Positions 5,371 to 28,813 of a stretch of 32,000 nt of DNA are shown one piece after another; position 1 is the first letter of the stretch, and each line of letters begins with the position of its first letter. The notes under the pieces were generated by a model. That model saw only the letters and a list, made by a program, of their open reading frames with translations, did not search any database and was not told the origin of the DNA. Origin of the DNA: Candidatus Saccharimonadota bacterium (GTDB lineage: Bacteria; Patescibacteriota; Gracilibacteria; Absconditabacterales; Absconditicoccaceae); contig OZ246420.1 of the NCBI GenBank assembly GCA_965231145.1, positions 720,001 through 752,000 on the forward strand. Direction: 5' to 3'. Position numbers and translations under genes: made by a program.

Positions 5371-5406
5371 GAATAAAATATTGATACTCACAAGAATAAA
5401 ACTATA

Positions 5407-5439: not shown

Positions 5440-5484
5440 AGTCAGCTCAAAATACACACTCAAGCAATTGAGAAATTTTCCTTA

Positions 5485-5576: not shown

Positions 5577-5590
5577 TTATTCAAAAAAAA

Positions 5591-8815: not shown

Positions 8816-8893
8816 ACTACAAAAGGGATCTAAACAGAAAAGCAGAGTTAAATCTATATATAACGAATAAATCGCTCATAACATTATATCGTT

Positions 8894-9826: not shown

Positions 9827-9843
9827 GAGATAATATCTCCTAG
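9823..9843. terminator. Perfect hairpin between the convergent Rep and CDF genes (candidate bidirectional terminator)
   Basis: ctaggagat-aat-atctcctag overlaps the Rep stop codon. A T-rich stretch follows on the + strand. Confidence 0.45.
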
Positions 9844-9867
9844 TTGCTTTGTTCTTAGCTTCATGCA

Positions 9868-10659: not shown

Positions 10660-10705
10660 ATAATGAGTTTTAGGTAAAGTATTTATGTTTCATACTGTAG
10701 TATAT

Positions 10706-11122
10706 CTAATTGAACTGTATCTGAAAGCTATACATTCCCATAGCACACGTTCCATTAACAACATCTCAAGCTTTTTGTTCTGGCAGTTGCACTATATCAG
10801 ATCATTTTGGATCTAAGTTTTTTGAATAGCTCAGCTCAGGTATTCTTACAGCACTTTCACACCCATAAGCATTTCTCCCCTGTATTTTAATTTCTGTAGG
10901 CATTCCCGCCTTAGCAACAGTCATTTTTGGACTATATCCTTGCCCTGCAGTTATGGTGATTTGTTGCTTTCCATTTACCACTACTACATTTGAAGATGGC
11001 GCAGTTGAGACTGTTCAAGCATTGCTTGAAGTATTATCACCTTTGTAAAGTTTCACACCAGTAACTATACCTCCTACTAAGAGAACAGTTACAATGGCAA
11101 TAATAATGTTTGTTTTTGTCAT
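10706..11122 (-). CDS. Membrane-anchored cupredoxin-like small domain protein (138 aa)
   Basis: N-terminal TM IIIAIVTVLLVGGIV, then VVVVNGKQQITITAGQGYSP...YGCESAVRIPEL...GTCAMGMYSFQIQF. This is the type of protein commonly found next to HMA-permease and copA genes. Three TGA-Gly. Confidence 0.7.
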
Positions 11123-11132
11123 TGAAAAGAGA

Positions 11133-12137
11133 TTAAAGACTAAAGAAAGGCTGTATAATACCCAATGCAACAAGACTGCTTGAGAAGTTATAGAGCGCTA
11201 ATACGATCAAGATAATACCGATTGTTTTGAAGAAGAGGTTTGATGATGATGACTTTTGGATGGATTTTCATGTCACACTCAATAGTAAGAGCATAGGCAA
11301 AGTACCTAAAGCAAAGCTTAACATCGTCAACCCTCATGCTAAGAAGCTACCTGTAGAAAGTGTATATACCTGCATTGACTGTGTGAAACCGCATGGAAGA
11401 AAGAATGTTCCAATACCTATCAGAAGAGGTCAAAGAAATGAATTACCTTTTCAAGAAAAACGCTTAAAGATACCTCATCAAAATGCTACTCCCCCTCTTA
11501 CAACTCATAAAAGATTCAGTCATAGAATGAAGAGAACTACTGCTATAACCATATTTAGCACAATACTTACATTCTGCGAAAGTTGAAACGCTGCACCGAT
11601 CATTCATAAAATCCCTCAAAGAATGAAGAATCCTACAAGTCTTCCAATATGAAAGAGTGAATGCGGGCGAAATGAAGAGTTTTGTGAATATACCGTTCAT
11701 AAGGCTAAAACTACTCACCCTACAACTGCAAGGCAGCTTGATACCGATGCTATCAGTCCAATAATAAATGATGTTCCATACGTCCTATTTTCTGCGTTGA
11801 GCATTTGTAGCAATCCAAGTTTTTGAAGCTCTACAAATCCATATATCAAAGCAGCTGCCATGACAAAGGCAAGGATGTATTCTCACCGATTTATTGTTTT
11901 TTCTTGAGGTTCAGTATGTATACTATAACCATGAGGATGAAGCAAAGGATTCATAATAGCAGATAGCTGTTCAGGTGTCACTTCCTCATCACTATGAATT
12001 ACTTCCACAGTTTGACGTCTAAGACTTACTTTCACATGATTCACACCTTCGATTTCGCTTACTGTATCTTGTATCAAAAAGATACATGCCTTACAGTGCA
12101 TTCCTTTCACATGAAGCGTATGTGCTTGTTGATCCAT
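11133..12137 (-). CDS. HMA domain fused to a DsbD_2/TauE-like multi-pass permease (334 aa)
   Basis: Extends track ORF 11883..12137 (HVKGMHCKACI) through about 14 TGA. TM region has SSCLAVVGG and FFLPCGFTQ motifs. I checked the frame triplet by triplet and found no TAA or TAG. Confidence 0.75.
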
Positions 12138-12165
12138 TATGTAAAGTTTTTTACGAATAAAAGTC

Positions 12166-14436
12166 TTACAGTTTTGTATTTTTCAATCTGAGGCTATTTG
12201 CTACCACGCTTACACTACTCATCGCCATTGCAAGTCCTGCAAAAATAGGATTGAGTAGTACAGGATAAAAGAGACCTGCTGCAAGTGGTATTCATACTAT
12301 GTTATAGATAAACGCCCAAAAGAGGTTTTGCTTGATAGTTGCCATTGTTTTTCTAGAAAGCTTAATGGCTTTTACAAGCTTGCTTATATCTCCTGCTAAA
12401 AGTGTAATATCAGCAGTTTCTATAGCTACATCAGTACCTGTACCCATAGCAATTCCTACGTCAGCTAAAGCAAGTGCAGGCGCATCATTTACACCATCTC
12501 AACACATCGCTACGACCGCTCACTCCTCTTTCAGTGAACGAATTACATCTGCTTTTTGATGCGGCAACACTTCTGCTCTTACATCATCTATTCATACGAG
12601 GGAAGCAATATGTTCAGCGGTTTGTTTGTTGTCTCCAGTTAGCATTACTGCTTTTATTCAAAGACGATGAAGCTCAGCGATTGCTTCTTTCGCATTATCT
12701 TTGATAGTATCTGCGATTCCAAATATGGCCATTACCTCTTTATCTGTAGCAAGGAAGATTGGAGTTTTCCCTTGAGACGTAAGAGTAAGAATATCTTTGA
12801 GGTCATACGTTGCTCATATATCATCCATAAGCTTTATATTACCTGCATACCATGTAGCACCAGCTATTACTCACTCAACCCCTTTTCCTTCAATCATCTT
12901 GAACGAAGAAACTTCTTGAAGCTGCATGTTTTCTTTGCTCGCACTGTTCACAATAGCTTCAGCAAGTGGATGCTCAGATTGCTTTTCAAGGCTCGCTAAT
13001 ATTTGTAAGTCATTGGCTCTATAGTTTCCTATATAATCTACCAGTTCAGGTTTCCCTTTTGTGATAGTTCCTGTCTTATCAAAAACAACAGTTGTTACTT
13101 TATGCATTTTTTGCAGGCTTTCTGCATTCTTTATCAGTATACCCTGTTCTGCTCATTTACCCACACCCACAATAATTGCTGTTGGCGTGGCAAGTCATAA
13201 AGCACAAGGACAAGCAATTACTAATATACTTACAAAGGCAACTATACCCGTTACAAAGTTTCCTGTAATAATCCACACTATGAGTGATATTATTGCTAGA
13301 ATCAAGACGATTGGCACAAATATTGAAGAGATCTGGTCAGCAAGTTTTTGAATTGGAGCTCTTGATCCCTGGGCTTCCTGTACCATGTGGATAATATGCG
13401 CCAGCATACTATCTGACCCTAAAGACGCAGCTTTCACCTTGAGAAATCCTTGTTTATTTATTGTCCCTCAAATAACTTTCTCTCATTCTTTTTTCTCTAC
13501 TGGCATAGATTCACCTGTAATCATAGATTCATCTATACTGCTTGATCCACTGGCAATGATACCATCAACGGGAATTTTCGATCATGGCTTGATAAGTATA
13601 ATATCATTTTGTTGTACCTGCTCTATAGATATTTCCATTTCTTTTCCGTCTCTTTCTACGATCGCTGTTTTTGCTTGAAGGTTCAAAAGCTTTTCGATTG
13701 CTTCACCAGTTTTAAGCTTTGATTTCGTCTCAAGATATTTTCCATAGTAGATGAAACCAATAACGACAATAACCACATCATAGTAATGAATGCTCACATC
13801 TAAATAAGGAGCAAGAACCTCTTCAAATGCGCTTACTATAAAGCTATAAATGAATCAGACGAGAGTTCCAAGTCATATCAAGGTTTCCATACTTGCGACA
13901 CCAGTTTTCAAGAATCTCCACAAAGCTATGATGTATTGTTTACCAATAACAAATAATACATACGTGGCCATGAGAGGGAATGTATGATGCCAAAGCTCAT
14001 ATAGCCATTCTGACATTTCAGGAAAAAACCCTTGCTTACCTCATATATCAAGAATCATATATACAAAACTCAAAACCACAAAAGGAATGATGATGTTAAT
14101 GTTTTTTTTCATCCCTTTTATCTCTTCAAGCTTTTCGTCTTTCGTTTGATTCATCCCTAAATGAGCTGCATGTTCATCTGCTGACATTTTAGAATGATCC
14201 ATCTTACTATGATCTACTTTTGGAGCAGAGCCAATAAGCTGATACCCCATAGGCTCAATAGACCTATTCATATCTTCTATACTCACCGTTTCAGGATCAA
14301 AGTTAAGCTTAGCAGTATCAGTAGCAATATTCACTTCACATTCTTCCACTCATGGAAGCTTTTTGAGTGACTTTGTGATATTATGTGCACAGCTGGCACA
14401 GTGCATCCCTTTCACTTTATATGTATCTTGCATCAT
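12166..14436 (-). CDS. copA: Copper-translocating P1B-type ATPase (756 aa)
   Basis: Joins track ORFs 12871..13107, 13195..13437, 13582..13797 and 14041..14349. Motifs are GMHCASCA (HMA), [39 protein letters not shown] and [16 protein letters not shown] checked the whole frame for TAA and TAG. Confidence 0.95.
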
Positions 14437-14460
14437 TCTTTTGCTAGAAAGTAAAATATA

Positions 14461-15600
14461 TTATGGAGTTCACCCTATTCAGTTTGTCCAAATACTTATA
14501 CCATTGGGCATTTTACCTACTGGAATAGTACTCTCAACTTTATTATCTATATTATTTATAACTGTGACCGTATTACTAAGAAGATTTGTAACATATGTTT
14601 TCTCTCCATTTGGAGATATAACTACTCCATGTGGAGCTTCTCATCCTATATACTTTTCTACAACATCAAGACTATTTGCATCAATTTTATAAATACTACT
14701 TCCAACAGGTTCATCAAAATAATATCACTGATCTGCCACATAAATATATGCACTATCTGGCGTAGAATATAGCTGTATTGGTCATACTGATCACTCTGGC
14801 AAACTCACCGTCTTAACTTCTTTACTAGCAATCTCATAACGAGCAATACTTTTAGCATTGTAGAGAGAAGCAAACACGTACTTATTATCTGGCGTTACTG
14901 CCACCTGAATTACTTTTCAATTCAATGGAATGATTTCTGACGTATAAGTCACTGTATCTATCTTCGCTATTCATCTTTCTCCTATAAGTGCAACATAAAG
15001 CGTTGTCCCATTGGCAGATAAACGCAATCAGTGAGGCTGCGCTCAATCAGGCAATACTACTGTTTGTTTTACTTTTTTGGTTGTTAAGTCTACTACATAG
15101 ACCTTTCATTTATCCTGAGACGTAACATATGCTGTACTATCGTCATGACTTATTACTGCATGTGCTAGATGCGCTCACTTATCAAGGCTAACACGTCAGA
15201 TAACAGTATCGGTCAGCGGATCGATGATAACTAACTCATCGTTATTTGTTTCTTCTACCGTATGTCATTCTTTTTCATCTTCCTTTATGTTCGCTGTTAT
15301 AACTACTACTGTTCCTTTGGGTCATACTTGGACATTATGTGCCGAGAACGATAAAAGCTTACCATAGTATTGCTCTGTTAAGCTTATTGTTTTTATCACA
15401 GTATTTTTATCTGCATCGATAACACTTACTGCACTTTCTCATTCATTTGCTATGTATATCTTCTGATTTACTGACATATTAATATCTTGTTTTTTCTCAA
15501 ACGAGAAATTTCTATTCGCTCATTTTATCGTCAACATCAACCATAATAAGAGCCCAAAGGCAAATACACCAATAACTACAACAACTCATTTGTATTTCAT
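14461..15600 (-). CDS. YVTN-family beta-propeller repeat protein with an N-terminal signal anchor (379 aa)
   Basis: The frame is open only under table 25; about 18 of about 31 Gly codons are TGA. Repeats of the type YIANE-G-ESAVSVID, AYVTSQDK-G-KVYVVD and KTYVTNLLSNTVTVI. Confidence 0.8.
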
Positions 15601-15627
15601 ATCTGTATAGCTTAGAAAGTAAAAAAG

Positions 15628-15906
15628 CTATTTTCTCGTGCTTACATCCCGTACTCTTACTAACTCATCTACAAACTCCTCTACTTCAGCTTTGTCTTTT
15701 GAAACCAGCTTAGTCTTACCACAGCACTTCAAATGGTTTTTGAGAAGTTGTCTGTTTGCTTCTTTTAAAAGACCTTGAGCTGCGTTGATTTGGTTCGCAA
15801 TATCAGCACAATAAATATCGTTCTCGATCATCTGTAAGACTTTATCTAATGTGCCTCTAGCCTTCTTAACTCACATTGAGATCTTATCCTTATTACTTCA
15901 AAGCAT
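15628..15906 (-). CDS. csoR: CsoR/RcnR-family metal-sensing repressor (92 aa)
   Basis: Extends track ORF 15628..15831 upstream through 2 TGA to ATG 15904-15906. KKARGTLDKVLQMIENDIYCADIANQINA...NHLKCC gives the C...H...C ligand pattern of the DUF156 family. Confidence 0.85.
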
Positions 15907-15932
15907 GGTTCATAACTTAATGGTAAAACATG

Positions 15933-15947
15933 ACCCTATGGTAGGGT
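15933..15947. promoter_or_regulatory. Candidate CsoR operator (inverted repeat ACCCT-N5-AGGGT)
   Basis: Lies 27 nt upstream of the csoR start. It resembles the G/C-tract inverted repeats bound by CsoR-family repressors. Confidence 0.35.
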
Positions 15948-16045
15948 TATAGCAAAGATACCTATTATTGCAAGGGGAAATAAAAGCTGAGTTGCATCTT
16001 ATCACTAAAAGCGTACATATAAGATATTTACTCATCAAGATCGAC

Positions 16046-17272
16046 ATGAAATATCAGTCATATTATCCATATCCTCTTCAGGTTGATTTTGAAAGTCCGT
16101 TATGGGATTTCATCAAAAAAGATTGAAACGAAAAAATTGTATGAGATCTTATGGTAAAACGGATGCAAAATTGACTACGCTATAAGCGCATGAATAATGG
16201 AAAGATGGAAAGCTTTATATCTGAAACCTTAATGGCTATCAGATATTGATTACCGCCTGAGAAAAAAGATGATTGAATATATGTAAGTGGACTTTATTTA
16301 GTAGTAAGTCGCATTATCGAAGTCCTTATCACAAGAATGAAAGATTGCGGAGTTGATGATTGAGTGTTAGTAAGAATACTTATGTGAGGGATGCTTCACG
16401 AGTATTATACGACTGGTGAATATGGAGAAAAACTCCGAGATATTCTTGATGAAGAATGAGCAAAACAGAAGGCTGCTAAATGAAAATTTGTAAAAACACC
16501 TGTATCACAGTTACGGACTAAGCTTATTCCATTTCATACTGAATACGCATCTCAGAAAAGGAATGAAGCAGAATATAAACTATGAAAATTCCTTACTGGG
16601 ATTCTTAAAGGGAAAATACCTGTAATGACAATGGACATACTGAAAGCAGCGACAACAACTTCCATTATAGAGCCTGAGTTATTAAAATTCGATAAAGAGG
16701 GAATAAAAATAACTAAAGAAGATTTTCCAAACGACCCTGACATAGTCAAAGGATTTCAGCAAACACGTATTTTAAGAAAGTGTGAACTTTACGAAATAAA
16801 TCTGCTCATCTGTATAGTGGCCGCTATATACCAAGAGGAAGAATTATTCCTGTATTTTGACCCTTACCATCTTAGACTATGAATATGCGATAGAAAGAAC
16901 TTAGTCATCAAAAGAGACCATGTAAACCTGATAATGAGCTTTACTAATATACTTCATAGCATCTTCTGTGAGCATTGCATCAAGATAGCATTTGGTAAGT
17001 TTGATATAGATTTCTCTACTCTAACACCTGATGAGACAGCAGATGTACTAAAAAAGATGTTAGATGACCTTTATAGTCAACTTTCAAAAGTGTGTCCTGA
17101 TGATCTCACAGTAACCGTTGAATGAAAGGTAGAAGATATGTGAAAATTTGCTGAAGTAGATGAAGCAATAACTCATTGAAAGGTTGGATTTGATAAGCAT
17201 GATGGTAAGAAAAAATGAATTATTTTTAAGGTAAAAAAGAATTTGAATAGCTACAGGAAAAAGATAAAATAA
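16046..17272 (+). CDS. Hypothetical protein (408 aa), no recognisable domain
   Basis: Joins track ORFs 16625..16882 and 16934..17125 and extends upstream to ATG 16046 through many TGA. I verified the frame triplet by triplet. TAA at 17270-17272. Confidence 0.6.
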
Positions 17273-17359
17273 TGCTACGCCCTTCAGCAAAGGGAAATTT
17301 ACTGGGATGGTTTTTCACACGCTTCCTTAGCAGGAAGAGAAGAGCCTACCCCGACTGTT

Positions 17360-17527
17360 ATGACCACAGATAAAGTAAGGGACATTCTATGAGAAGAGTA
17401 TCAAGATCTTCCTGATGAGAAAATCCAAGACATCATCAAGATCTGCAGAGCTATCGCAAGATACGCTATCGAAAACTACTCAGAAATCTCAAAGAAACAC
17501 AACCCTGAAGAGGAACAAGACGCTTAA
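17360..17527 (+). CDS. Small acidic protein (55 aa) upstream of recombinase 2; related to the 25947..26138 product
   Basis: MTTDKVRDILGEEYQDLPDEKIQDIIKICRAIARYAIENYSEI. Pattern D..I.DII..C..IA.Y.IEN matches E..L.EFIN.CKRIANILIDYAEEN upstream of recombinase 3. Confidence 0.45.
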
Positions 17528-17541
17528 CAGCGTCTTTTCTT
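17519..17541 (+). terminator. Rho-independent terminator
   Basis: gacgct-taac-agcgtc followed by ttttcttt. It overlaps the stop of the small ORF. Confidence 0.5.
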
Positions 17542-17633
17542 TGACCAAGAACAATAAAGTAAGTTGAACTTGCATTATTACATAATAAGACTATGAATGA
17601 GCTAATTATTTGTATCTTTCGAGAGTTTAACAA

Positions 17634-19358
17634 ATGGCAAGAAAAAGAAATCTTTTACAGTACGATATTGCCAATCAAAGTCCTGTGTTTTCTGCTTGAG
17701 AAAAAGTAATAGATAAAGGCAAGAAGCAGTGAATCATCTATGCAAGAGTTTCTACAGAAGAACAAAAGAAAGATGGAAATGGGATAAATGCTCAAATCAC
17801 TGACTGTAAGAATTGGGCAAAAAGAAACGAAGTTGAGGTAGTAAACATATATACTGATGAAGCTATATCCTGAACAGATCTAACAAGACCATGATTCAAT
17901 ACAGCTATCAAATTCATAGAACAACAGAACAAGAAAGGAAACTTCATTGAGTATTTTATATGTAACTCCACTTCAAGATTTTCAAGATCACCTGAACTAT
18001 GAAAAACTTTTGATATGGTAGGAAGGGTACAGATAGCCTGAGCTAAGTTAGTCTCTGTAGGTAACTGATGAGTAATAGAGACCAATACTGAAGAGTGACT
18101 TATACAATCAACACTGAGCTTCATGAGTGATGCTCTTGAATCTATGAAAGGAAGTAAAAGAGTGAAATATGGTCTTAAAGGAAAAATCTATGAAGGATTG
18201 CGACCATTTTCTCAATGTCCTATGGGATACGAAAGAATAGTAATAGAAAGATGAGGTAGAAACATAAAGAAGCTTATCAGAAAAGAACCTCATGCAACCA
18301 TCCTTGCAGATGGTCTTAAACTCTTTGCTGACTGATCTCTTATGACGAAGCAAGATCTCTTTCTCTATTTTGAGGAACAATGACTAAGATCAAACAGCAA
18401 GAAGAACAAACAAGAAAAGCTTCATAAAAGCGTAGTGTATAATACAATCTTAGATCTATGGAAACTGTATGTGTATGCAGGCTATCTGACGTATCCACCA
18501 CTCTGAATAAATGAGCTTATTCCAGCAGATCATCCTGCGCTTATAGATTTAGATACTCTCAGCAAGATCATGAAGAGGTTGAGCTATGATAAAGAAACAG
18601 TAAACCAAGAAACAAAAAAATACGATATGGATTCTCAAGACTACCCTCTTACAAGAATACTACAATGTGAAGAGTGCTGAAAATGAGTAACCAAGCGAAA
18701 GTCGAAATCTAAGACCTGAGACTATCACCATTACTATGGTTGCAACAACCCTGATTGCACCTTACATAAAAAGTCTATCAAAAGAGACGAAGTACATAAT
18801 GCAGTAAGAGAGAAGCTTACTACTCTTTCTGTTTGAGACAAAATGATAAAGGTCTTAGAGTTAGTTTACAAAGAAGAATTACAACTCATTACCAAAGACA
18901 AGAAGGTAAGAAACAAATCAAAAGAAGAAAGGATTGCAAACCTACAGAAAGAAATGAAAGCCTTAGAAAACATCATGGAAAAAATAACGAACGATCAACT
19001 CTTCCAGAAGAAACAGGAAGAATGGGCAAAACTCAATCAAGAAGTTGAGAATATCCATAAGGAGATAGACGATCAAGACTTCCAAAAAGATGAACAGGAT
19101 AAAGTCTTTAATGAAGCAAAGACTATTTTATGCAATCCTGCCGCTATCCGAGATTTTGGAGATGCTGAATTAAAGCAGTTAGTAATTAGGGTGTGCTTCA
19201 ACAACAAAATTATGTATAAAAAAAATCAAGGGTTGCACACCCCTGAAATATCAGGTATCTATTTAGCTAAAGAGCGATTATCATATTCGTCATTACGTAA
19301 ATCTGGAGACATTGAGTTTATTTCTGAACACCTATGACTTGACTGAGGGTGAATTTAA
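17634..19358 (+). CDS. Large serine recombinase (574 aa)
   Basis: Motifs IIYARVSTEEQ (catalytic Ser), SG-TDLTRP-G-F, Zn ribbon CEEC-G-K...YYGCNNPDC, and coiled coil (track ORF 18843..19337). The frame is continuous from ATG 17634 through about 20 TGA. It reads past TGA 19335-19337 to TAA 19356-19358. Confidence 0.9.
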
Positions 19359-19580
19359 GGAGGAAATGCTGAAATTCTACTACTTTGGACTTAGCTTGGC
19401 AAAAGCCGGCAATCTTGAAAGATACCGCAAATACTCCTCATTTCTCTCACATGACAGTATATGAACTATAGGGAATACGTAAAAAAAGTTATTTTTTCTC
19501 GGATAAACTATATAAAGATATAGTAAGGTACGGTTGGAATAGCATTCCAATTCCTTATATTCTTACCAAATAACGTATTT

Positions 19581-19793
19581 ATGCCTGCTCTACCTGAAGC
19601 AAGTAAACCAACCACACAAAAATGAGATAGAATAATCACCAAATTGATGCTTTATCTCATAACCCACTTAATTATGGGAATACTTTGGATATCACAACTC
19701 TTTATAGAGACCTCACTAGAGCAATCTGTACAACAACTTACTGCGAGTTCAAGTCCTCAAAATGCTATTTGTCATAAGGTAGAGGTGACATAA
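19581..19793 (+). CDS. Small single-TM protein (70 aa)
   Basis: ATG 19581, TAA 19791-19793. TM helix LMLYLITHLIMGILWISQLF. One TGA-Gly. Confidence 0.35.
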
Positions 19794-19818
19794 ATATGTT
19801 GTAATATATTTTACTATC

Positions 19819-20292
19819 ATGGCCAAAAGCGGAAAAGAAAACATTAAGGTATTCATTAATACCTGCTATACTGAAATATGAGCACAAGTGGCAGAATTGC
19901 AGTCTTATAAAAGCACTCTAGCCATTATTTTTTCTGCAATAGCTATAATATTAACCGTACTTCCCAACGAAGTTACTATACATTTAGACAAAGATTATAA
20001 CGTAATTAAGGTGTTTCAAGGATATTGCATATTAATCACAGTATATACGCTTGTATTAATCTGAATTAGCTATCATCGAGGTATCAATATACAAAAATTA
20101 AGCACTATATCCGTAGATGAAGAGGATTATTTGCAACAAACTGCCCAGAATTTAACGTCAATTATTAAGAAAAATGACGTTATATTAAGTAGACAGCAAC
20201 GAAACCTCGGTATTATATTTCTTTCTATATTATTGGTACTACTAGCTACAATATCTATAGTATTTATTGGATATGAAGTCGTTATTAAATAA
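19819..20292 (+). CDS. Three-TM membrane protein (157 aa)
   Basis: ATG 19819, TAA 20290-20292. TM helices LAIIFSAIAIILTVL, GYCILITVYTLVLIGISY and LGIIFLSILLVLLATISIVFI. Frame verified. Confidence 0.5.
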
Positions 20293-20307
20293 TCACCCCC
20301 GCTTATT

Positions 20308-20901
20308 ATGTCCCATATTTCTAAAGAAGAAGAGAAAATCAAATTAGGTCTTATAAAGGCAATCCAATACATAAACTTATACAATTGAGAGAAAGATGAA
20401 TATAAAAGATTTTGCTATTTAAAAGATGCTTTTCTTATAGCTACAGAATTTACACCAACAGCATTTATTAAAGAGCATATATGAAAAAAGACTAGCGACC
20501 AATCAATACTAGCAAAGATTAAGCTATTAAAAATCACAAGACATTTGCTTTCTCATTACCCCTTTTTCTCGTCCTGAGATGAAATTTTTATCGATTACGA
20601 AATGATGAAGGGAGGGCAAATTATATCTTATTTCGAATGAATAGATAAAAGTCCTATTCATATCCAATATCAATATATTTCTTGAGAAGAAGTAAACTGT
20701 GAAATCTGTATTCCTCCTCTATGACCTAATTGACGCTTCTTTTTTAATGAAATGTTTAAATTTACTGAAAATCGCTTCTCTAATGATAAAAACGCACCTT
20801 TAGTAGTAATGACGATGATTGCTCTTACTCTTTTTCAAGAATATATAAGGTCTATACCCGGGTTAGACAAAAAACTGTCAATTCATTGGGAAAATACTTA
20901 A
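20308..20901 (+). CDS. Hypothetical protein (197 aa) containing an R-x4-H element (KITRHLLSHY)
   Basis: ATG 20308, TAA 20899-20901, 8 TGA-Gly, frame verified. The Rx4H match is short and could be chance. Confidence 0.5.
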
Positions 20902-20912
20902 TAGAGAATAAA

Positions 20913-23900
20913 CTAATCCCACTTTTTCAAAATAGTTTCTACATCTTCCTTCAGCGTTTCAGCTAACGGAACTTTACTTATCGCCTCTCTAATTGCTGAT
21001 TTAATAATACTCTTTTCAGAAAAAGGAAATTCAATCTTACTGAGAAAGAGGACAAAGAAATCTAGATATTTTGCTAAATTTTTAGAAACATTCACATTGA
21101 TTATAAGAGCAGTAAAAACACTTATAGCTGCTTCGTAATTCTTAAAAAACTTGAATTTAGATATTATTTCTTCATGGGAATATCTCTCTTGATTTAGAAT
21201 ATTAATAATCACATCTACACTATATAGGGTATTTTTATAATTCTCCATTATTAAAAGAGCTAGGCACTCATCGTGCTTTTCCTTAGTTATGATACTATGT
21301 TCAAACAGCAGGGTAATAATTGTATTAATCGAAGTTGATTGAACCTTAAATTCTTGGAGGGCAATCAGAGAAAGGACCTCGTCATCTGCATAAAAATAAG
21401 CTCCAGTTTGTTGAGCATACATCATAACATCTAAGTATTCTACCCCTAGTATTTCTTTTAATCTTTCGTTTTTAACAATAATACTAGATACCATAGGCGA
21501 AAGTTCACAGGCGTTTTCAATAAATTGTTTAATTTCTAATAGCACTTGTTGTTTTTGTTTATATTCTTCTTCTGTATGCTCGTGTTGTGCATATTGTCAT
21601 TCGCCAGTCTTATAAAAGGATATGTGCTTTCATCATAAATGCTTTTCCTCCAAAATATCTCAATTGAGCTTATCAAGCGTTGACTGCAACACTACTTTAG
21701 AAATAGGCAACTTGTTAAAGCACTCTAAAAGTCCCAGTTTATGTAAAGTTATTATAGCAGTAATATCTATGACGACACTTCATATTTTTAATAAATCCTT
21801 TTGTACACCTCATAATACTCTAATTCATCACAATGAAGTAATTGCATAGTAAGCTTCTACTATATTCATATTTCTATTTTCTGCTAGGAAGGACAATGTA
21901 ATTTTACCTTCATTATATAATTTTAATAGCTCCTGTCCTTGTTCATAATTAGCATCTGCAGTGGCATTCATTTGTTCTAGCATATTCTTTATACTGTTTT
22001 CATCATTCTCATCTATAGTAAGCATCTTTACTGCACTCTTATCTCAGAATTTTATTTCTGAACTGCTTAAAACATAATGATACGCATATAAAAACTTACT
22101 TTTAATATTTTTAACCTTTCACTTTCTCGTTCAACTCAAAGCAATCTCATCTCACTCTTTAGCATCTTTAATTAAGCTATATAAGTTATCTGAGGTTTTT
22201 AATATTTCAACTCCGGGTAGTCATACGATATCACTTTGAATAATATAGCGAGCAGTAGAGCCGTTCTCTTCAAGCTCAAAGTAAACCCCCTCAGCTATTG
22301 TGTTCTGATGTAATATGAATGAGAGTTTGCCTTGCTTATCATTGTTTATTACCATCATATAAAGATTATAAGCATCTTGTTCTGAAACATTATCACATAA
22401 GTATTCATAAGCCATTTTTAATGCTTTTTCTCCATATCATAAAGAAATTAAGATTTCAGCGTAGGTTCTTATATTACTTCTATAAATTTTACCATATTCA
22501 TCACTTTCTTGACAATATTTATCTACTTCCTTTAATCTTTTTTCATCTTGTGTTAAATATTTTAAGTGATTTAATCGTAGTAATGAATTAGGGTCATTAG
22601 TCAGTTTTACTAAATTCTCACAGTTTATAATTGCGTTTTTATAATCTCTAATGTTTTGGTAAATCTCAGTTTTCATTATAAGAACATCCTTATCTATGCC
22701 ATATACTTTTATATAATCATCACAAAAAGAAATTAGTTTTGAAGCTTCTATATCATTTCTTTCTCCTGCTTTGATAATATTTTTAAGGGTGTCTAGATTA
22801 TTATTTAATGGAAATAGCTTTTCATAAATCTTATACGCTTCTTTGTTATAATTTAATGTAAGTAACATTTCTCATGTATAATATAATTCCCACAGAGGAA
22901 GGGTATCTATTTGGGAAATTATATTTTTAACAAGTCAATCAACATCTATTTTTATGCCCATTTTCACTATATCTCATTCGCTTATGCAGGCTAGTAATGT
23001 AATTTTATCTTTTATCGATGTAGAGTTAATCATCTCATCTAACATGGATTTTGCCAATGTTTCATATCAAGCGGTCCTCAAATAGAATTCTAAAAGAGTA
23101 TATTTTACTTTATGGGTATCTTCTTCATTTTCGGGATTTAATGCTAACAATATTTTCTCTGCTTTTTCTATATTTCAAATTTGTGCATAGGTTCTAGCTG
23201 CAATTAATGTGGTTTGAACATCTGATAAGTCCTCCTTAATCATGCCTAAAACTTCTTCAGCGGGTTTGCCAGATATTAAAGCCATCCAAATTTGATTAGT
23301 ATGAGTAGTAGTTAATTCCTTTTTGCCAATTCCTCGTTTTTGTCAGCTATTTATTATCAAATCAAATATTTGTAGTGCTTTATCTTTTTCACCTAGAGAA
23401 AAATTGACCAACGCATTATTCATCAATCGATAAATAAATATGGATTTAAATTTAGAACCATAGATATTATCCCATAGTTCAGAATAGACTGATTGTAGCC
23501 ATATTAACTCCTTCTTATCCTCTGCAGTTAGTAAATATGTTCCTTTTTCTATTTTCTTATTTTTCTCAAATTTACTTAATTTAATATCAGCTATTTTACT
23601 AACACAGTATAAAGTCTTTTTAGGGTTCTTTTTCATGATTTCTTCAAAAATACTTATTGCTTTATCTTCTATTCACTGTTGCATTGCTATAAGTCCCAAA
23701 GTCATGTTTATTGCTTCGTTTGATGCTATATGGGTAGGAATATTTTTATATATTTCCTCAAAATTACCTGATTTCCCCTCAATTACTATCTTATAATTAT
23801 ATGCTGGTAATACTTTGGGATTAGATTTTAAAATCTCATCTAAAGAAGTTATTGCTTGTTCATCAGATATTTTTTTATCTAACCATTCAATATAAATCTT

Positions 23901-24674
23901 TACTGTTTGTGAGTATTCTGGTCCGTAATTCACGTCACTCGCTTTTTTAAGCCATTTGACAACCTCTTCTTCGTTATGAATATTTCAAAAGAACCTGACA
24001 TTTAATAAGTAGAATTTGAACCTTACTTCTACATTAGAACCTTCTACTAAAGGTATAAGAGCATCTCTTAATACAGCAAACTCATCTAAACGATACGAAT
24101 ATATTAAGTCGTTTGCTATATTGTCTATAATGTCAATCAGATACTTATCATCTGGCTTTTTAAAACTTTCTTGTATACTTTTTAATATTTTCGTGTGTTC
24201 ATTTAATGTTTCCTCTGTTTTATCTGTAAAATATCTATTTATAATATCTTGCCCATCTGGCAATGAAAATAATCTGTTCCAATCATTGTACCACACCAAC
24301 TCAATGCCTGCCTGTTCAGCATTTTGATGAATAGTATCCTTGAGTGGATTATCTGCCCAAACTAAATGAGAAAATATATAAATTTTAGTTAATTCATATT
24401 CTCCGCTTATTTTTCTATCTATCGCATTTTGAATGGATTTTGCTATTTGCCTATAATGGTCATAACTTACACTTGTTAATGCTTCAAAAAATTTAGCTTG
24501 AAATCATATTCATCTAACTGCTTTAGTTTCAATTCAGGCATAGTTAAAAAAATGTTCTATCGGCTCTACAATATTACATTCTCTACGAAAAACTTCTTCA
24601 CATAATTGTTCAAAAGCAGTTGTAGTATCAGAATGAATAACTTGAAATATCTTCCAATCTATTAAATTAGGCAT
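20913..24674 (-). CDS. Giant TPR/alpha-solenoid protein (1253 aa) with an N-terminal PD-(D/E)xK-like motif and a C-terminal PIN-like region
   Basis: Track ORFs 20913..21545, 21828..22025, 22221..22415, 22437..22868, 23343..23636, 23673..23933 and 23985..24299 all share one frame. I read every intervening triplet and they are linked only by TGA codons. ATG 24672-24674, stop 20913-20915. N-terminus WKIFQVIHSDTTTAFEQLCEEVF...YAGIETKAVRGIGFQAKFF. C-terminus GSVVIDITAIITLHKLGLL...AYFYADDEVL. Confidence 0.7.
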
Positions 24675-24849
24675 CTTCTTCTAAAGCTAATGAATAAAGC
24701 TTGTAATAATATATTTAAAATAATTGGTATTCACAAGTCTTAAAATCTGTGTGCAAAAGTATATGAAAACCTTTTATCATATTAAATAAAGAATTAGTAA
24801 TTTGAAGCTACTAATTCTTCAATCGTCAAATAATTGTTAAGTACGCTTT

Positions 24850-24868
24850 GCACAAATTCTACATATAT
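24850..24868 (+). repeat. 19-nt motif GCACAAATT-N3-CATATAT, copy 1
   Basis: 16 of 19 positions identical to copy 2 at 25096..25114. Both copies lie in the 700-bp non-coding gap upstream of the giant ORF. Confidence 0.4.
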
Positions 24869-25095
24869 AAATATGCGTTCTCGAGTAAGTGTCCAAAAAC
24901 TAGAAATATCATCAATGAAGAGAAATAAGAGTTGGATAAATACTTTTGATTGCTTTTATAGTTTGCTAAATTAGTGGATTTGGACAAAAAAGTTCTCTAC
25001 GGAAGTATGTGAAAATCATACACTCATTTATAGTCTTAAATCTCAATATATACCTAACTTTTCATCATTTAAAGAAAAAATAAATACTCCGTTTC

Positions 25096-25114
25096 GCACA
25101 AATTTCGCATATAT
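25096..25114 (+). repeat. 19-nt motif GCACAAATT-N3-CATATAT, copy 2
   Basis: See copy 1 at 24850..24868. Confidence 0.4.
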
Positions 25115-25155
25115 TTCCTCTAAAAGTTATATAATATAGATTTGAGTTTGATTTT

Positions 25156-25311
25156 GGCTTACAAAACCTTATTTTCACTGGTGCAACATCATTACATATT
25201 AACCACACAATCCTCTAGTAATAGAGGGACGGTTTGCGATTTTCTCCGCTTACTGTCCTCACGGGCGTGTGGTGTAATGGTGTTGCAACCTGAGAGGTCG
25301 TAAGCCGTCCC
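25156..25311 (+). ncRNA. Candidate structured RNA of unknown class (about 155 nt)
   Basis: The most G+C-rich non-tRNA patch in the island. Nested helices: ggcttac (25156-62)/gtaagcc (25300-06); ggtgcaacatcattac (25180-95) plus accacac (25202-08) pairing with gtgtggt-gtaatggtgttgcaacc (25267-90), with one bulge and one U-G pair that favours the + strand; hairpin cctcta-GTAA-tagagg (25212-27), a GNRA loop. gggacgg (25226-32) is complementary to ccgtccc (25305-11), giving a pseudoknot or an alternative pairing. Confidence 0.4.
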
Positions 25312-25340
25312 ATTATTATTTCTACATTGAGCTTATGACT

Positions 25341-25368
25341 GAAGGATAATCATATACCTTCTTTTTTT
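25341..25368 (+). terminator. Weak terminator-like hairpin plus T-run between the structured RNA and the 25387 gene
   Basis: gaagg-N11-ccttc followed by tttttttatttttt. An A-tract and the ATG come next. Confidence 0.3.
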
Positions 25369-25386
25369 ATTTTTTCAAAAAAAACC

Positions 25387-25854
25387 ATGAAAAAATGGCT
25401 TTATGTAGTGGCGATAATTCTTCTAATCGGCGTACTTTGAGGAACATACTACTATGTTCAACTCGACAATAAATCTTCTAATAATCCGGATATTGAAATG
25501 TGTAAAAATGAAGTGATGAGTGTTTTAAAATCGCCCTCAACGGCAGTTTTTGGAACATTTGATACTACAACTGACAATATTGCATCATACGTAAGATGAG
25601 AAGTAGATAGTCAAAACACATTTTGAGGTGTTTTAAGAATGAAGTTTGTATGCGTAATTAATTGATTTGATGTCAGAATAGTAAGTTCTGAAGGAGATAG
25701 AGATGAAATAAACGAATTAGAAATACTCAATAGCTATATTTTCAATAATACTATACCTACTGGCACAAGAGCAGAAATATATACGCAGTACATGAAAGAT
25801 ATCGCAGAAATAAATCTTAAATATTATGAATGAACTAAGGACTTACTTCCATAA
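25387..25854 (+). CDS. Signal-anchored small protein (155 aa) carrying the PSTA.F...DSQN.FG...R.KF.C domain
   Basis: ATG 25387, TAA 25852-25854. N-terminal TM WLYVVAIILLIGVL. The segment MSVLKSPSTAVFGTF...VDSQNTFGGVLRMKFVCV is homologous to the C-terminus of the 5591..6874 product. Confidence 0.7.
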
Positions 25855-25946
25855 GTATTGACATTTTCACGTTTGAAACACAGATGTCATTGAAACAAAG
25901 GTGTTCTAAATATAAATAGATGTCATTCATATTTTAATATTATCTT

Positions 25947-26138
25947 ATGAAAGCCATTCAACCTATAACGGTTGAACTCGCTAGGGATATGGTGTGACAT
26001 TTAGTCAGTGAAAATTGTGAAGATACGGAGTTACTCGAGTTCATTAATAATTGTAAAAGGATAGCAAATATCTTGATTGATTATGCTGAAGAAAATATTT
26101 TAAAAGATTTACCATCTTACGAAGAAAAAGATGAGTAA
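25947..26138 (+). CDS. Small acidic protein (63 aa) whose stop overlaps the recombinase 3 start
   Basis: ATG 25947, TAA 26136-26138, overlapping ATG 26131 of the recombinase. Related to the 17360..17527 product. Confidence 0.5.
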
Positions 26139-27750
26139 AAAAGCAGTAGTATATACAAGAATATCTTCAACCACTCAAGAGAGTTGAGGTTGATTAGGTA
26201 GCCAAGAAACGTCTTGCAGACAATATTGCGAAAGAAAAGGTTATGAAGTAATAGAGGTTTTCCAAGATGTATTCTCATGAGGAGAACTTAACAGACCTTG
26301 AATAAAGGCTATGTTCAATTTTATTGATGACTATAATCGCAAAAATACGGAAAAAATTAGTGTGTTTGTTACTCATAGTATTAATAGAATAGCTAGAGAT
26401 TATAAGGTACATCTTGAGCTTACTACAGAATTATTAATGAGAAAAGTAAACTATGAAACTGTAGATATGACCTTCGAGCGTACTCCCATGGGTAAATACA
26501 TGGAATGAATGATGGCGTTGAATGCTGAATTCTTTAGAACAGAAAATAAAGAAAGAGTTATCTCTAGACAGGAAGCTAGATTATTAGATGGTTATCGACC
26601 ATTTGACCATCCTACCGGATATAGAACTACCTATGCTCTCGGTGGATGAAAATTACTTATTGCAGATGAACCTAATGCTTCAATTATTAAAGAAGCCCTT
26701 GAAGGATATGCAAATGATATATTTAATAGTATAGATGAGGTAGCTAAATTTTTACAGCAAAAGGGCTTAAATTTATATAGAATTAGAAACAAGAAAAGAG
26801 AATGAAAATATAATTATGTTCATAAATCATTGGCATGAAGAATGCTAAAGCAAATTTTATATACCGGTTATATCGCATATAATAAGGTTACTTTCGATAA
26901 AAACTGATTAATAAAGAAAGAATGGAACATTCCATTGAGGAAAGGTAGGCATGAGTGAATTATCGACTTATCGACATATTATAAAATTCAGGAAAAACTA
27001 AATGGAAAAAGACCTTATGAAAAGGAAACTAAAGCTATAAACGAGAATTTCCCTTTAAGGTGATATATTGAGTGTGATTGTTGTAATCTAAAATTTAGTT
27101 CGGGCTTATCAAGAAGCAAAAATAGAAAACAAGTCCCTTATTATCAATACAATAAAGGATGTATACATAAGGGGAAATCTATTAATGCAAATAAATTGCA
27201 CACAGACTTTGATAACCTAATTCAAGATAGTCAAATAAATGATGAATTTCTTAATTTTATGAAACTAGTAATAGCATCCGAATATGAACAAAGGAAAATA
27301 GACAAAAAACAAAATAAACAGAGTTTTGAAAAAGAGGTAAAATCTATAGATAATCAGGTGAATAATTTAGTTAATAGTCTTGCTTCTTCATCTTCTAATC
27401 TCGCAAGAACAAGAATTGAGCAAAAAATAGACGAGTTAGAAATGAGAAAGGTTAATATTAATGAGCAAATGAGTGAGGATAATAGTGAAGAATTAAGTAG
27501 CAAAGTAATAGAAATAGCGTGCTCTATTATAGAAGACCCATATTATATATGGAAAGATGGCAATATATCACAAAAACAATCTCTATTAAATATATTGTTC
27601 AGAAAAAAAATCCCAGTCAATAAAATGACCGGAACTTTCTGAACACTACCTTTTAGTAGTTTCTACCTGTTTTCTAGCAATATTTCAAAAGATAAGTTTC
27701 AACATTTGGAGGTGACGAGACTCGAACTCGTGTCTAAAAGTCATGCATAG
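26131..27750 (+). CDS. Large serine recombinase (539 aa) whose 3' end overlaps the tmRNA gene antisense
   Basis: Motifs VVYTRISSTTQES (catalytic Ser), FS-G-GELNRP-G-I, Zn ribbon CDCCN...YYQYNKGC, and coiled coil (track ORF 27196..27642). Under table 25 the TGA at 27640-27642 is Gly. The frame then runs on as ...TLPFSSFYLFSSNISKDKFQHLEVTRLELVSKSHA to TAG 27748-27750. Confidence 0.85.
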
Positions 27751-28056
27751 ATCCTTACTACCATCATAGTCTGTGAATTTCTCCCGGAGGCTATCTGAGC
27801 CCGCGACAGGCATCGATACTTTAATATATGTTTTAAGCCCACATAATCGGCTGGTTTTCCTGCTCATCACTCGGGCCTAGCAGGAGTCAGGGGCCGAGTT
27901 TAGGCTTTAACTACGCAGCATATGCGTAATTGAAAGCTGACAATCTCATGTTAGAGTTTGCATGTTTTGGTGAACGATTATTTTATCCTCGGTACGTTCG
28001 TCGAGCGATGGCTAGATATACACATGGGGTACTTCTATCAATACCAGCACACCCCC
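27707..28056 (-). ncRNA. ssrA: tmRNA (transfer-messenger RNA)
   Basis: 5' GGGGGTGTGCTGGTATTGATAG pairs with 3' CACCTCC-A, giving a G3-U70 Ala identity pair. T-arm is ACGAG-TTCGAGT-CTCGT. Internal tag frame GCA AAC TCT AAC ATG AGA TTG TCA GCT TTC AAT TAC GCA TAT GCT GCG TAG (27961..27911). CCA is not encoded. Confidence 0.9.
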
Positions 28057-28117
28057 ATATATAATATACGAATTATACTTATTTCTGTGACGATTTACCA
28101 GTGTATTATAGTATCTG

Positions 28118-28447: not shown

Positions 28448-28461
28448 TAATGATAAAAACT

Positions 28462-28764: not shown

Positions 28765-28813
28765 TTTTTTATTTGTAAAATAATATTTTTGTTTTTGCAC
28801 TTATCAAATGAAG

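What the first reader, a model, noticed from the sequence alone, without database searches (positions are those of the whole stretch)
27640..27750. Recombinase 3 reads through its apparent TGA stop and ends inside the tmRNA gene on the opposite strand
Under table 25 the TGA at 27640-27642 is Gly, and the ORF continues for 35 more codons to TAG 27748-27750. Its last 44 nt (27707-27750) are the reverse complement of the tmRNA acceptor 3' strand and T-arm; the peptide ...HLEVTRLELVSKSHA is encoded antisense to CACCTCC/ACGAG-TTCGAGT-CTCGT.

The element and ssrA are therefore fused with no spacer. Inference: the attachment site lies in or at the tmRNA 3' end. If so, the element may supply part of the tmRNA 3' terminus after integration. 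The recombinase C-terminal tail would then differ between the integrated (attL-fused) form and the excised (attP) form.

Genomic islands at ssrA are well known for tyrosine integrases. An LSR fused in this way is unusual to my knowledge.
Basis: partly seen in the sequence, partly recalled or inferred. Interest (0 to 1): 0.7.

Follow-up and report, generated by a model that had tools for sequence, protein, structure and literature searches.

The report
Serine integrase gene split at ssrA
The recombinase gene really does run into the tmRNA gene, because this mobile element inserts at the last five bases of tmRNA and its integrase gene spans its own attachment site, so insertion detaches a conserved 57-residue tail that excision would restore; a similar case was noted in Dehalococcoides in 2011.

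Summary
The genome reads TGA as Gly. The large serine recombinase LSR3 (26131-27750) reads through TGA 27640-42 and stops at TAG 27748-50, 44 nt inside the convergent tmRNA gene (27707-28056).

The overlap is not fortuitous. It is attL of an 8.4-kb integrative element, E3 (19304-27711). The crossover core TGGAG is the complement of the tmRNA 3'-terminal CUCCA. The LSR gene spans its own attP. Its last 57 codons lie at the far end of the element (19309-19482). They match the C-termini of homologues that have an uninterrupted gene, one of them on a 10,046-bp circle. They rejoin in frame in 5 of 5 elements and are under purifying selection.

E3 is the tmRNA-proximal member of a tandem array of three such elements. 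The middle element, which carries copper resistance, occurs alone at ssrA in another host, with homology ending exactly at the predicted cores.

The invariant TGA codon lies in a conserved hairpin. On the tmRNA strand this hairpin looks like a replacement ssrA terminator.

Precedent exists: in Dehalococcoides ssrA islands, dsiB overlaps attL (McMurdie 2011). Mx8 and SSV integrases also span attP. I therefore rate this a new variant of a known kind. Whether the tail swap has a function is untested.

The parts
27707..28056 (-). ssrA (tmRNA) gene. Its 3' end (discriminator A) is at 27707, and CCA is not encoded.
   Evidence: ARAGORN; Rfam RF00023 at 73.4 bits over the full model
27707..27711 (.). 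Crossover core TGGAG of attL of element E3 (P3-O-B'). It is the complement of the tmRNA 3'-terminal CUCCA.
   Evidence: The same 5-mer sits at the other two junctions, 19304 and 8692. Homology with L059 ends at the cores. The core common to all relatives is TGGA.
26131..27750 (+). LSR3, a large serine recombinase, in its integrated (attL-fused) form of 539 aa. Bases 26131-27711 are element DNA. Codons 27712-27750 (VTRLELVSKSHA plus stop) are read from antisense tmRNA.
   Evidence: Pfam Resolvase 78 bits and Recombinase 31 bits. Homologues are 535-576 aa at 96-100% coverage. In L001 the tmRNA-derived part is read in another frame.
27640..27642 (+). TGA = Gly codon. It is invariant as TGA in all homologues with DNA in hand and lies in the outer stem of the conserved hairpin.
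27596..27645 (-). Conserved hairpin inside the LSR3 ORF. The outer inverted repeat is TGTTCAGAAA/TTTCTGAACA. The inner stem is 27610-27620/27625-27635 and is followed on the minus strand by U8 (27609-27603). It is probably the ssrA terminator supplied by the element (inferred).
   Evidence: RNAalifold on 8 loci gives 21 pairs, 5 with compensatory changes. 97.6% of cells pair on the minus strand against 86.9% on the plus strand; for the inner helix the figures are 97.7% and 76.1%. MFE is -26.3 (minus) against -15.9 kcal/mol (plus). The simple terminator scan did not flag it.
19304..19308 (.). Core TGGAG at the junction of E2 and E3 (P2-O-P3'); this is attR of E3.
   Evidence: LSR2 and its 95%-identical homologue P0213 diverge exactly here..RKSG|DIEF against ..RKSG|DDEIRTRV, the latter being tmRNA antisense. 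L059 homology ends at 19309.
19309..19482 (+). Detached 3' segment of the LSR3 gene (P3'). It has 57 codons (TLSLFLNTYDLTEGEFKEEMLKFYYFGLSLAKAGNLERYRKYSSFLSHDSIGTIGNT) plus TAA.
   Evidence: tblastn against tails of uninterrupted homologues reaches E 7e-9. The tail HMM scores E 3.6e-23, though this tail was itself in the HMM's training set. It joins in frame after 27711 to give 584 aa. Third-position differences exceed first- and second-position ones.
19304..27711 (+). Element E3, about 8.4 kb. It holds the detached tail, small ORFs, a 1253-aa PIN-TPR-GreABC protein (20913-24680, minus strand), a secreted or membrane protein (25384-25854), a 63-aa conserved ORF and LSR3.
25947..26138 (+). 63-aa ORF overlapping the LSR3 start. 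A homologous small ORF precedes the LSRs of E2, L001, L008, L009 and L059. It is a candidate directionality factor or regulator (inferred).
   Evidence: blastp between them gives E 1e-13 to 1e-4. It has no Pfam hit. L003 and L004 carry an HTH_17 gene at this position instead.
17634..19358 (+). LSR2 (574 aa as it stands). Its own tail is at 8697-8815. Its present last 16 codons (from 19308) are read out of frame from E3's P3'.
   Evidence: Pfam Resolvase and Zn_ribbon_recom. The rejoined ORF is 597 aa. The family shows the same tmRNA-fused and tail-bearing classes.
8692..19308 (+). Element E2, about 10.6 kb, carrying copper resistance (P-type ATPase, HMA/DsbD_2, CsoR-like and others). P2' lies at 8697-8815.
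   Evidence: blastn against L059 gives 88-91% identity over 8692-9789, 10706-15987 and 17360-19309. In L059 it is a single element abutting a tmRNA gene.
6980..8815 (+). LSR1 of element E1. It is a pseudogene, with TAG at 7496-7498 where the L008 homologue has TGG. Its present C-terminus after 8696 is E2's P2', which happens to be in frame.
   Evidence: The left end of E1 was not found; it lies between 4742 and 5124.

Best explanation
Bases 27640-27750 are the 3' end of a large serine recombinase gene that crosses attL of an integrative element, E3 (19304-27711), into the convergent ssrA gene.

The element integrates by conservative serine recombination within TGGA(G), the complement of the last nucleotides of mature tmRNA (acceptor stem plus discriminator). 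The tmRNA sequence is therefore untouched, and only its 3' flank is exchanged.

The attP core lies inside the recombinase ORF. On the free circle the gene would encode about 584 aa with a conserved 57-aa helical tail. After integration those 57 codons sit 8.4 kb away at attR (19309-19482). The chromosomal gene instead ends with 12 residues read from antisense tmRNA. Excision would rebuild the full gene.

New elements of the family insert between the resident recombinase and ssrA. This built the three-element array E1-E2-E3, in which the oldest integrase is already a pseudogene.

What is shown by sequence: the junctions, the cores, the in-frame rejoining, conservation of and selection on the tail, the circular relative, and the same E2 in two hosts.

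What is inferred: that LSR3 itself catalyses the reaction; that the hairpin at 27596-27645 terminates ssrA transcription; and that gain or loss of the tail changes the enzyme's activity or directionality.
For: 1. Code 25 and read-through are established.
2. tmRNA is at 27707-28056.
3. All homologues keep the TGA and the next roughly 20 residues, then split after ..LE into two classes. One class carries tmRNA-antisense tails in varying frames. The other carries a conserved tail..LLN....SL.E..EEI..F.YFG.LL.K.GN.
4. P0014, which has the conserved tail, is on a 10,046-bp circle. It was assembled twice as rotations with 0 mismatches and carries Rep_1, HTH_17 and the LSR. Its attP core is TTGGTGGAC.
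5. A tail HMM finds detached tail ORFs at the far ends of four integrated elements. L028 (E 3.5e-20) and L029 (E 5e-15) were not in the training set; the window and L009 tails were.
6. Five independent elements rejoin in frame: window E3, window E2, L009, L028 and L029.
7. The tail is under purifying selection. Differences by codon position are 18/5/24 for L028 against L029 and 4/3/13 for L002 against L034. dN/dS is 0.03-0.68 where it can be computed, mostly 0.1-0.6.
8. E2 in L059 has homology bounded exactly by 8692 and 19309 and abuts a tmRNA gene there.
9. P0213, a 95%-identical homologue of LSR2, is fused to tmRNA antisense at the very residue where LSR2 meets E3.
10. Hairpin covariation shows strand asymmetry. 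Unoccupied ssrA sites elsewhere have a hairpin and T-run in the flank that integration would displace.
11. Across the family, 101 of 142 representatives end in tDNA-antisense-like peptides. Standard-code relatives end inside tRNA-Ser, tRNA-Arg and tRNA-Thr genes.
Against: - No excision junction or circular form of E3 itself was found. The only close protein in the databases is the integrated form.
- No unoccupied ssrA from a close relative was recovered.
- The crossover cannot be narrowed below the 4-5 shared bases.
- Building the array requires attP to recombine with a hybrid P-O-B' site, which canonical serine integrases do not normally do.
- The tail is predicted helical, but only at pLDDT 40-64, so no structural role can be assigned.
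- Part of the tail's conservation (the LLN codons, CTGAAC, 12-22 nt from the core) may be DNA-level attP recognition.
- The consensus terminator scan did not call the hairpin.
- The covariation rests on only 8 related sequences.
- The left end of E1 and of the array was not located.
Confidence: 0.85

Rival explanations
1. The anatomy is as described, but the C-terminal swap is a neutral by-product of attP happening to overlap the 3' end of the integrase gene. On this view the tail has no role in activity, stability or directionality.
For: All recognised LSR domains lie upstream of the core. The tmRNA-derived replacement tails vary in frame and sequence. McMurdie 2011 also considered a trivial explanation. 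AF2 gives the tail low confidence.
Against: The tail is about 48-57 aa, far longer than an att half-site. It is conserved between LSR3- and LSR2-type families and shows a coding pattern of substitution with pN below pS. Its frame is kept in 5 of 5 elements even while detached.
Confidence: 0.3
2. The tail segment is conserved as DNA, as an extended attP arm or a regulator binding site, and not as a peptide. The open frame would then be incidental.
For: A DNA motif, (T)TT(A/T)C(T/C)GAAC, lies 12-22 nt from the core in all P' arms. It recurs inside the LSR ORF, with TTTCTGAACA at 27636 and 19321.
Against: Conservation extends about 140 nt beyond the core. Third codon positions vary most. The amino-acid motif EEI..F.YFG.LL is kept with different codons. 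The frame is continuous with the LSR in every case.
Confidence: 0.1
3. The overlap is a fortuitous read-through: the functional protein ends near 27639, or TGA is a stop here, and the element merely lies next to ssrA.
For: Under the standard code the ORF would stop at 27642.
Against: There are 12 in-frame TGAs at conserved Gly positions. The TGA and the following residues are invariant in homologues. No homologue ends there. The junction cores and the L059 boundaries fall on the tmRNA end.
Confidence: 0.02

Closest known systems
Dehalococcoides ssrA-specific genomic islands with the serine recombinase DsiB (McMurdie et al. 2011, PMC3146451)
   Same: A large serine recombinase sits next to attL and is convergent with ssrA. 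Its ORF always overlaps attL, with the stop codon in ssrA or in the neighbouring island. Islands form tandem arrays downstream of ssrA. The authors already suggested that the gene may be complete only on the circle.
   Different: [quoted passage not shown] They have a fixed module with a second small serine recombinase (DsiA), RecF-like, ParB and Mom genes; none is seen in E3. The hosts here use code 25. Here the detached tail is identified, shown to be conserved and in frame, and a free circle is seen. Sequence relatedness to DsiB could not be tested.
Myxophage Mx8 IntP/IntX and fusellovirus SSV1 integrase (integrase genes that span attP)
   Same: attP lies inside the integrase ORF, so integration into a tRNA gene changes (Mx8) or splits (SSV1) the gene. 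For Mx8 the altered C-terminus changes activity or specificity (PMC6070905 and PMC4383910).
   Different: Those are tyrosine recombinases with long tDNA identity segments. Here the enzyme is a serine recombinase with a 4-5 bp core, and only the last roughly 10% of the protein is detached.
SCCmec CcrAB and other large serine recombinases (phiC31, Bxb1, A118, TP901-1)
   Same: The domain architecture is Resolvase, Recombinase, zinc ribbon and coiled coil. Integration is site-specific at the 3' end of a conserved single-copy gene. The best solved-structure hit is the TP901-1 integrase catalytic domain, E 1e-8.
   Different: The known ones target protein-coding genes or intergenic sites, and their genes do not cross attP. 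In 2015 the Islander authors stated that serine integrases were not known to target tRNA or tmRNA genes.
Integration-dependent immunity of cluster G, N and P mycobacteriophages (recalled from memory: Broussard et al. 2013)
   Same: attP lies inside a coding gene, so integration removes a C-terminal segment and changes the protein's behaviour.
   Different: There the split gene is the repressor and the integrase is a tyrosine recombinase. This comparison was not checked with the tools here.

Membership tests
Large serine recombinase (serine integrase) | N-terminal resolvase catalytic domain with the catalytic Ser-Arg context | tested here: met
   PF00239 scores 78 bits over residues 5-149. The YTRISS motif is present. 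R, S and Q columns are invariant in 56 sequences.
Large serine recombinase (serine integrase) | Recombinase domain, zinc ribbon and coiled coil in the C-terminal half | tested here: met
   PF07508 scores 31 bits. Cys315/318/344 are invariant. Zn_ribbon_recom hits LSR2 and most homologues, although LSR3 itself falls below that Pfam model. AF2 of homologue P0014 shows long paired helices at 373-453 with pLDDT above 85.
Large serine recombinase (serine integrase) | Conservative recombination at a 2-bp crossover in short att sites, without long attP/attB identity | tested here: inconclusive
   Only 4-5 bp (TGGA/TGGAG) are shared at all junctions, and no longer repeat of the tmRNA end exists in the window. 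The dinucleotide itself cannot be resolved without experiments.
Dehalococcoides-type ssrA genomic islands (DsiB) | Integration at the ssrA 3' end, with the LSR gene adjacent to attL, convergent with ssrA and overlapping it; tandem arrays | tested here: met
   compared with the description in PMC3146451
Dehalococcoides-type ssrA genomic islands (DsiB) | [quoted passage not shown] | tested here: not met
   No copy of the tmRNA 3' end is found even with up to 3 mismatches. Only TGGAG is repeated.
Dehalococcoides-type ssrA genomic islands (DsiB) | Integration module with a second small serine recombinase (DsiA) plus RecF-like, ParB and Mom genes | tested here: not met
   The other E3 ORFs have no such Pfam hits. 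The gene next to the LSR is a 63-aa ORF of an unnamed family.
Dehalococcoides-type ssrA genomic islands (DsiB) | Sequence homology of the integrase to DsiB | not testable with these tools
Cluster look-ups returned no organism names.
Integrases whose gene spans attP (Mx8 IntP, SSV1 Int) | The attP core lies inside the integrase ORF, so integration changes or splits the gene | tested here: met
   circular relative
Integrases whose gene spans attP (Mx8 IntP, SSV1 Int) | Tyrosine recombinase chemistry | tested here: not met
   The protein is a serine recombinase.
Classical tDNA islands (Islander definition) | attP carries a tDNA fragment that restores the gene and leaves a displaced tDNA fragment as a detectable repeat | tested here: not met
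   The crossover lies in the last 5 nt, so nothing needs restoring and no BLAST-detectable fragment is left. Such islands would be invisible to repeat-based finders.

The most novel reading that the evidence does not exclude
The split gene may be a hard-wired directionality or commitment switch for a serine integrase. Only the free circle encodes the full-length enzyme with its conserved C-terminal helix, and that form would drive integration. The chromosomal copy makes a tail-less enzyme ending in tmRNA-antisense residues, with different activity, stability or partner dependence. It might, for example, be excision-competent only with the small upstream ORF product, or inert. The same architecture would operate across a large and largely unrecognised clade of serine integrases specialised on tmRNA and tRNA genes, each bringing its own terminator for the target RNA gene.
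Probability: 0.3. Interest if true: 0.8.

Novelty: new variant of a known kind. Interest (0 to 1): 0.55.

Why it matters
Serine integrases are prized genome-engineering tools because they are simple and unidirectional. Their direction is thought to be set only by a separate directionality factor.

A natural family in which integration itself rewrites the enzyme's C-terminus offers a testable, genetically encoded mode of control. It also supplies integrases with a universal, highly conserved target: the tmRNA/tRNA acceptor and T-arm.

The finding also shows that serine integrases target tDNAs widely. They leave only a 4-5 bp repeat, so repeat-based island finders would miss them.

In a small-genome, TGA-recoded bacterium, such elements stack defence, copper-resistance and other cargo at ssrA.

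Tried and rejected
- The viral-contig scan with the LSR alignment found no relatives.
- The single genome-contig scan used a tmRNA 3'-end pattern. It returned mostly unrelated phyla and no empty site from a close relative.
- A search for a direct repeat of the tmRNA end in the window found none.
The model of P0014 gave a low-confidence tail, so no fold search was made.
- I tested whether attP is a clear imperfect palindrome. Ungapped arm comparison gave 10-16 of 40 matches, which is not convincing.
- I looked for displaced tRNA fragments or tails in nine standard-code loci. No repeat of 10 nt or more was found, apart from one 10-nt match in L042 that is inside the tRNA body and looks like chance.
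- I looked for the left end of E1 and its detached tail in 4700-5600. There is no TGGAG and no tail-like ORF. Only weak similarity to L008 starts at 5124.
- Cluster look-ups to name host organisms or identify DsiB returned no names.
- The consensus terminator scan found nothing in 25800-28600, although folding and covariation support the hairpin.

Full report
**Observation.** The window uses TGA as a sense codon. With TGA read through, ORFs of at least 100 codons rise from 13.4 kb to 42.8 kb of sequence. In the recombinase the TGAs fall on conserved Gly columns, such as RPG, in an alignment that includes standard-code homologues. The ORF 26131-27750 (LSR3) has Pfam Resolvase and Recombinase domains. 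It passes TGA 27640-42 and ends at TAG 27748-50. A tmRNA gene lies on the opposite strand at 27707-28056 (ARAGORN; Rfam 73 bits).

**The tail is not a fortuitous read-through.**
- Seventeen close homologues (42-98% identity) are 535-576 aa long and cover 96-100% of the read-through query.
- All keep the TGA and the following TLPFSS(F/L)(Y/F)L. None stops at the equivalent of 27639.
- After a shared ..(H/D)LE the C-termini fall into classes.
  - One class consists of peptides that are antisense translations of a T-arm and acceptor, such as LEMTGFEPVS, GGDESRTRV, GGDGGSRTHV and RGVEPLTSS, in different frames.
  - A second class has a conserved non-tRNA tail, ..LELCQDLLN..SLSE.QEEI..FHYFG.LL.KSGN.. 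(P0009, 10, 11, 14, 15).
- L001 (GCA_030429145.1) and L009 confirm LSR genes ending 30-34 nt inside tmRNA genes.

**Where the missing tail is.** The conserved tail is encoded in the window itself at 19300-19479, 8.4 kb upstream and on the same strand (tblastn E down to 7e-9). It starts right after a TGGAG at 19304-19308. The same 5-mer begins the tmRNA overlap (27707-27711) and occurs again at 8692 at the end of the first recombinase. Joining ...CAT TTG GAG (27711) to ACA TTG AGT... (19309) is in frame and gives a 584-aa protein.

A profile built from eight tails finds detached tail ORFs at the distal ends of four integrated elements. Two of them, L028 (E 3.5e-20) and L029 (E 5e-15), were not used in training; the window and L009 tails were. 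All rejoin in frame, as does the window's second element, making five of five.

Tail substitutions are concentrated at third codon positions: 18/5/24 for L028 against L029 and 4/3/13 for L002 against L034. pN is below pS throughout. The segment is therefore maintained as coding sequence.

**The free form exists.** P0014, which has an uninterrupted tail, is encoded on a 10,046-bp circle. The circle was assembled independently from two runs as rotations of each other, with 30-nt k-mer overlaps and no mismatch. It carries a Rep_1 gene, an HTH_17 gene and the LSR. Its attP core TTGGTGGAC mimics a ..TCCACCA end. No tRNA or tmRNA is present on it.

**A tandem array, and independent confirmation of the junctions.** The window holds three LSRs in the same orientation: LSR1 at 6980-8815, LSR2 at 17634-19358 and LSR3. 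The layout is ...P1-TGGAG-P2'...P2-TGGAG-P3'...P3-TGGAG-tmRNA.
- P0213, a homologue 95% identical to LSR2, diverges from LSR2 exactly at the core and continues as tmRNA antisense (..RKSG|DDEIRTRV). Other LSR2 relatives carry either tmRNA-antisense or conserved tails.
- The contig encoding P0213 (L059) comes from a different host; its right flank holds Sua5 and RNase J. It carries the same copper-resistance element as a single insertion at its tmRNA gene.
- blastn homology between L059 and the window runs over 8692-9789, 10706-15987 and 17360-19309. It starts and stops on the predicted cores.
- LSR1 carries TAG where its L008 homologue has TGG. This fits E1 being the oldest, tmRNA-distal member.
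- Other contigs (L007, L008) show similar arrays.
- The core common to all relatives is TGGA, the complement of the acceptor-end UCC plus the discriminator A.
- The mature tmRNA sequence is therefore unchanged by integration. Only its 3' flank is replaced. In L059 an encoded CCA appears to be displaced.

**The TGA codon and an embedded hairpin.** At the nucleotide level A(C/G)T T(A/T)C TGA AC(A/C/G) is almost invariant, including synonymous sites. It forms the 3' half of an inverted repeat (TGTTCAGAAA 27596 / TTTCTGAACA 27636). The repeat encloses an inner stem that shows compensatory changes among eight loci: 21 pairs, 5 of them with double changes.

On the minus strand 97.6% of cells pair, against 86.9% on the plus strand. 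For the inner helix the figures are 97.7% and 76.1%, because many pairs are G.U only on the minus strand. On that strand the inner stem is followed by U8, and the fold is -26.3 against -15.9 kcal/mol.

This is the shape of an intrinsic terminator facing ssrA, about 100 nt past the tmRNA end. Unoccupied ssrA sites in other organisms have a hairpin and T-run in the flank that integration would displace. I therefore infer that the element brings a replacement ssrA terminator inside its integrase ORF. This is an inference: the simple scan did not call it, and the sample is small. LSR1 has a comparable minus-strand hairpin plus U6. LSR2 has a different inverted repeat at the equivalent codons.

**Breadth.** A profile search of 1.84 billion representatives finds 1,278 family members at E below 1e-30. 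Of 142 full-length proteins among the top 150 hits, 101 end in tDNA-antisense-like peptides, against 15% of internal control windows. A minority end in helical tails of the type LVD....WN.L...L..W. Standard-code relatives at 27-33% identity end inside tRNA-Ser, tRNA-Arg and tRNA-Thr genes.

**What is known.**
- The Islander paper stated that serine integrases were not known to target tRNA or tmRNA genes.
- McMurdie et al. 2011, however, described Dehalococcoides ssrA islands mobilised by the CcrB-like serine recombinase DsiB, in tandem arrays. They noted that dsiB always overlaps attL, with its stop codon in ssrA or the next island, and may be fully functional only on the circle.
- Tyrosine integrases of Mx8 and SSV also extend across attP, and for Mx8 the altered C-terminus changes specificity.
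- I found no paper describing a conserved detached tail for a serine integrase, or such elements in Absconditabacteria.
- The present case differs from the Dehalococcoides islands in three ways. It has a 4-5 bp core rather than a 20-bp repeat. It lacks the DsiA/RecF/ParB/Mom module. It has a small conserved upstream ORF instead.

**Limits.**
- No excision junction for E3, and no empty site in a close relative, was found.
- The tail's structure is predicted only at low confidence, and its function is untested.
- Accretion requires recombination of attP with a hybrid site.
- The left end of the array is unresolved.

**Verdict.** The observation and the main inferences are right. The anatomy is well supported, at about 0.85. 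A regulatory meaning of the tail swap is plausible but unproven, at about 0.3. I rate it a new variant of a known kind, of moderate to good interest.

Noticed in passing
window 459-4741: The leftmost part of the island carries two candidate anti-phage systems. One is a Septu-like ATPase plus HNH pair matching PADLOC PDC-M62A/B (459-2435, 2437-3333). The other is a PDC-M24A/B pair (3496-3945, 3968-4741; E 7e-31 and 5e-67). GC here is about 27%, lower than in the rest of the array.
   Followed up: partly
window 8692-19308; L059 1534-11676: Element E2 is a copper-resistance cassette (P-type ATPase 12166-14460, HMA/DsbD_2 membrane protein, YNCE-like beta-propeller, CsoR-like repressor). It is shared at 88-91% nucleotide identity with a different host that has a different tmRNA tag. 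This indicates recent horizontal transfer between code-25 bacteria.
   Followed up: yes
window 7496-7498: LSR1 has an in-frame TAG where the L008 homologue has TGG. The tmRNA-distal integrase is thus a pseudogene. Its present C-terminus (8697-8815) is the tail belonging to LSR2 and happens to be in frame.
   Followed up: yes
window 25947-26138 and 17360-17527; L001 9813-10016; L008 9825-9965; L009 9838-9984; L059 9727-9894: A conserved 46-67 aa ORF (..AR(D/E).LG(D/E)...C(K/R)R.A....DYAE..) lies immediately upstream of, or overlaps, each LSR start. It has no Pfam match. The circular relatives have an HTH_17 (excisionase-like) gene in that position instead. It is a candidate recombination directionality factor.
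   Followed up: partly
window 19321-19330 and 27636-27645: The 10-mer TTTCTGAACA occurs only twice in the window. One copy is in the LSR3 hairpin and one in the detached tail, 17 nt after the core. Relatives show matching variants in both copies (for example AACGC in L029). This may be a protein-binding site repeated on both sides of attP.
   Followed up: partly
L036, L037, L039, L040, L042, L043, L045, L046, L048, L051: Distant standard-code homologues (27-33% identity) of this LSR family end inside tRNA-Ser, tRNA-Thr or tRNA-Arg genes on the opposite strand, usually as ..EM(A/V)...(F/I)E(P/L).. No repeat of 10 nt or more of the tRNA end was found upstream, apart from one likely chance match in L042.
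   Followed up: partly
L059 1520-1540 against 11665-11680: The flank displaced by E2 in L059 reads ..AATTTGG|TGGAG, so the native tmRNA gene there encodes CCA. After integration the tmRNA end is followed by GATTTACG, so the encoded CCA appears to be lost. In L009 the element instead supplies a CCA (GTTGG|TGGA).
   Followed up: no
window 28118-28800 and 28994-29078: A HigB-like toxin and an HTH_3 antitoxin pair lie between ssrA and tRNA-Leu(CAG). An HTH_3 gene, tRNA-Leu(CAG) and the tmRNA tag (one substitution) are also found in this arrangement in L001.
   Followed up: partly
window 5528-6874 and 25384-25854: Cargo proteins of E1 and E3 share a C-terminal motif (..VDSQN.FG...R.KF.C..) behind an N-terminal membrane segment. 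This suggests a recurrent surface or secreted cargo family on these elements.
   Followed up: no
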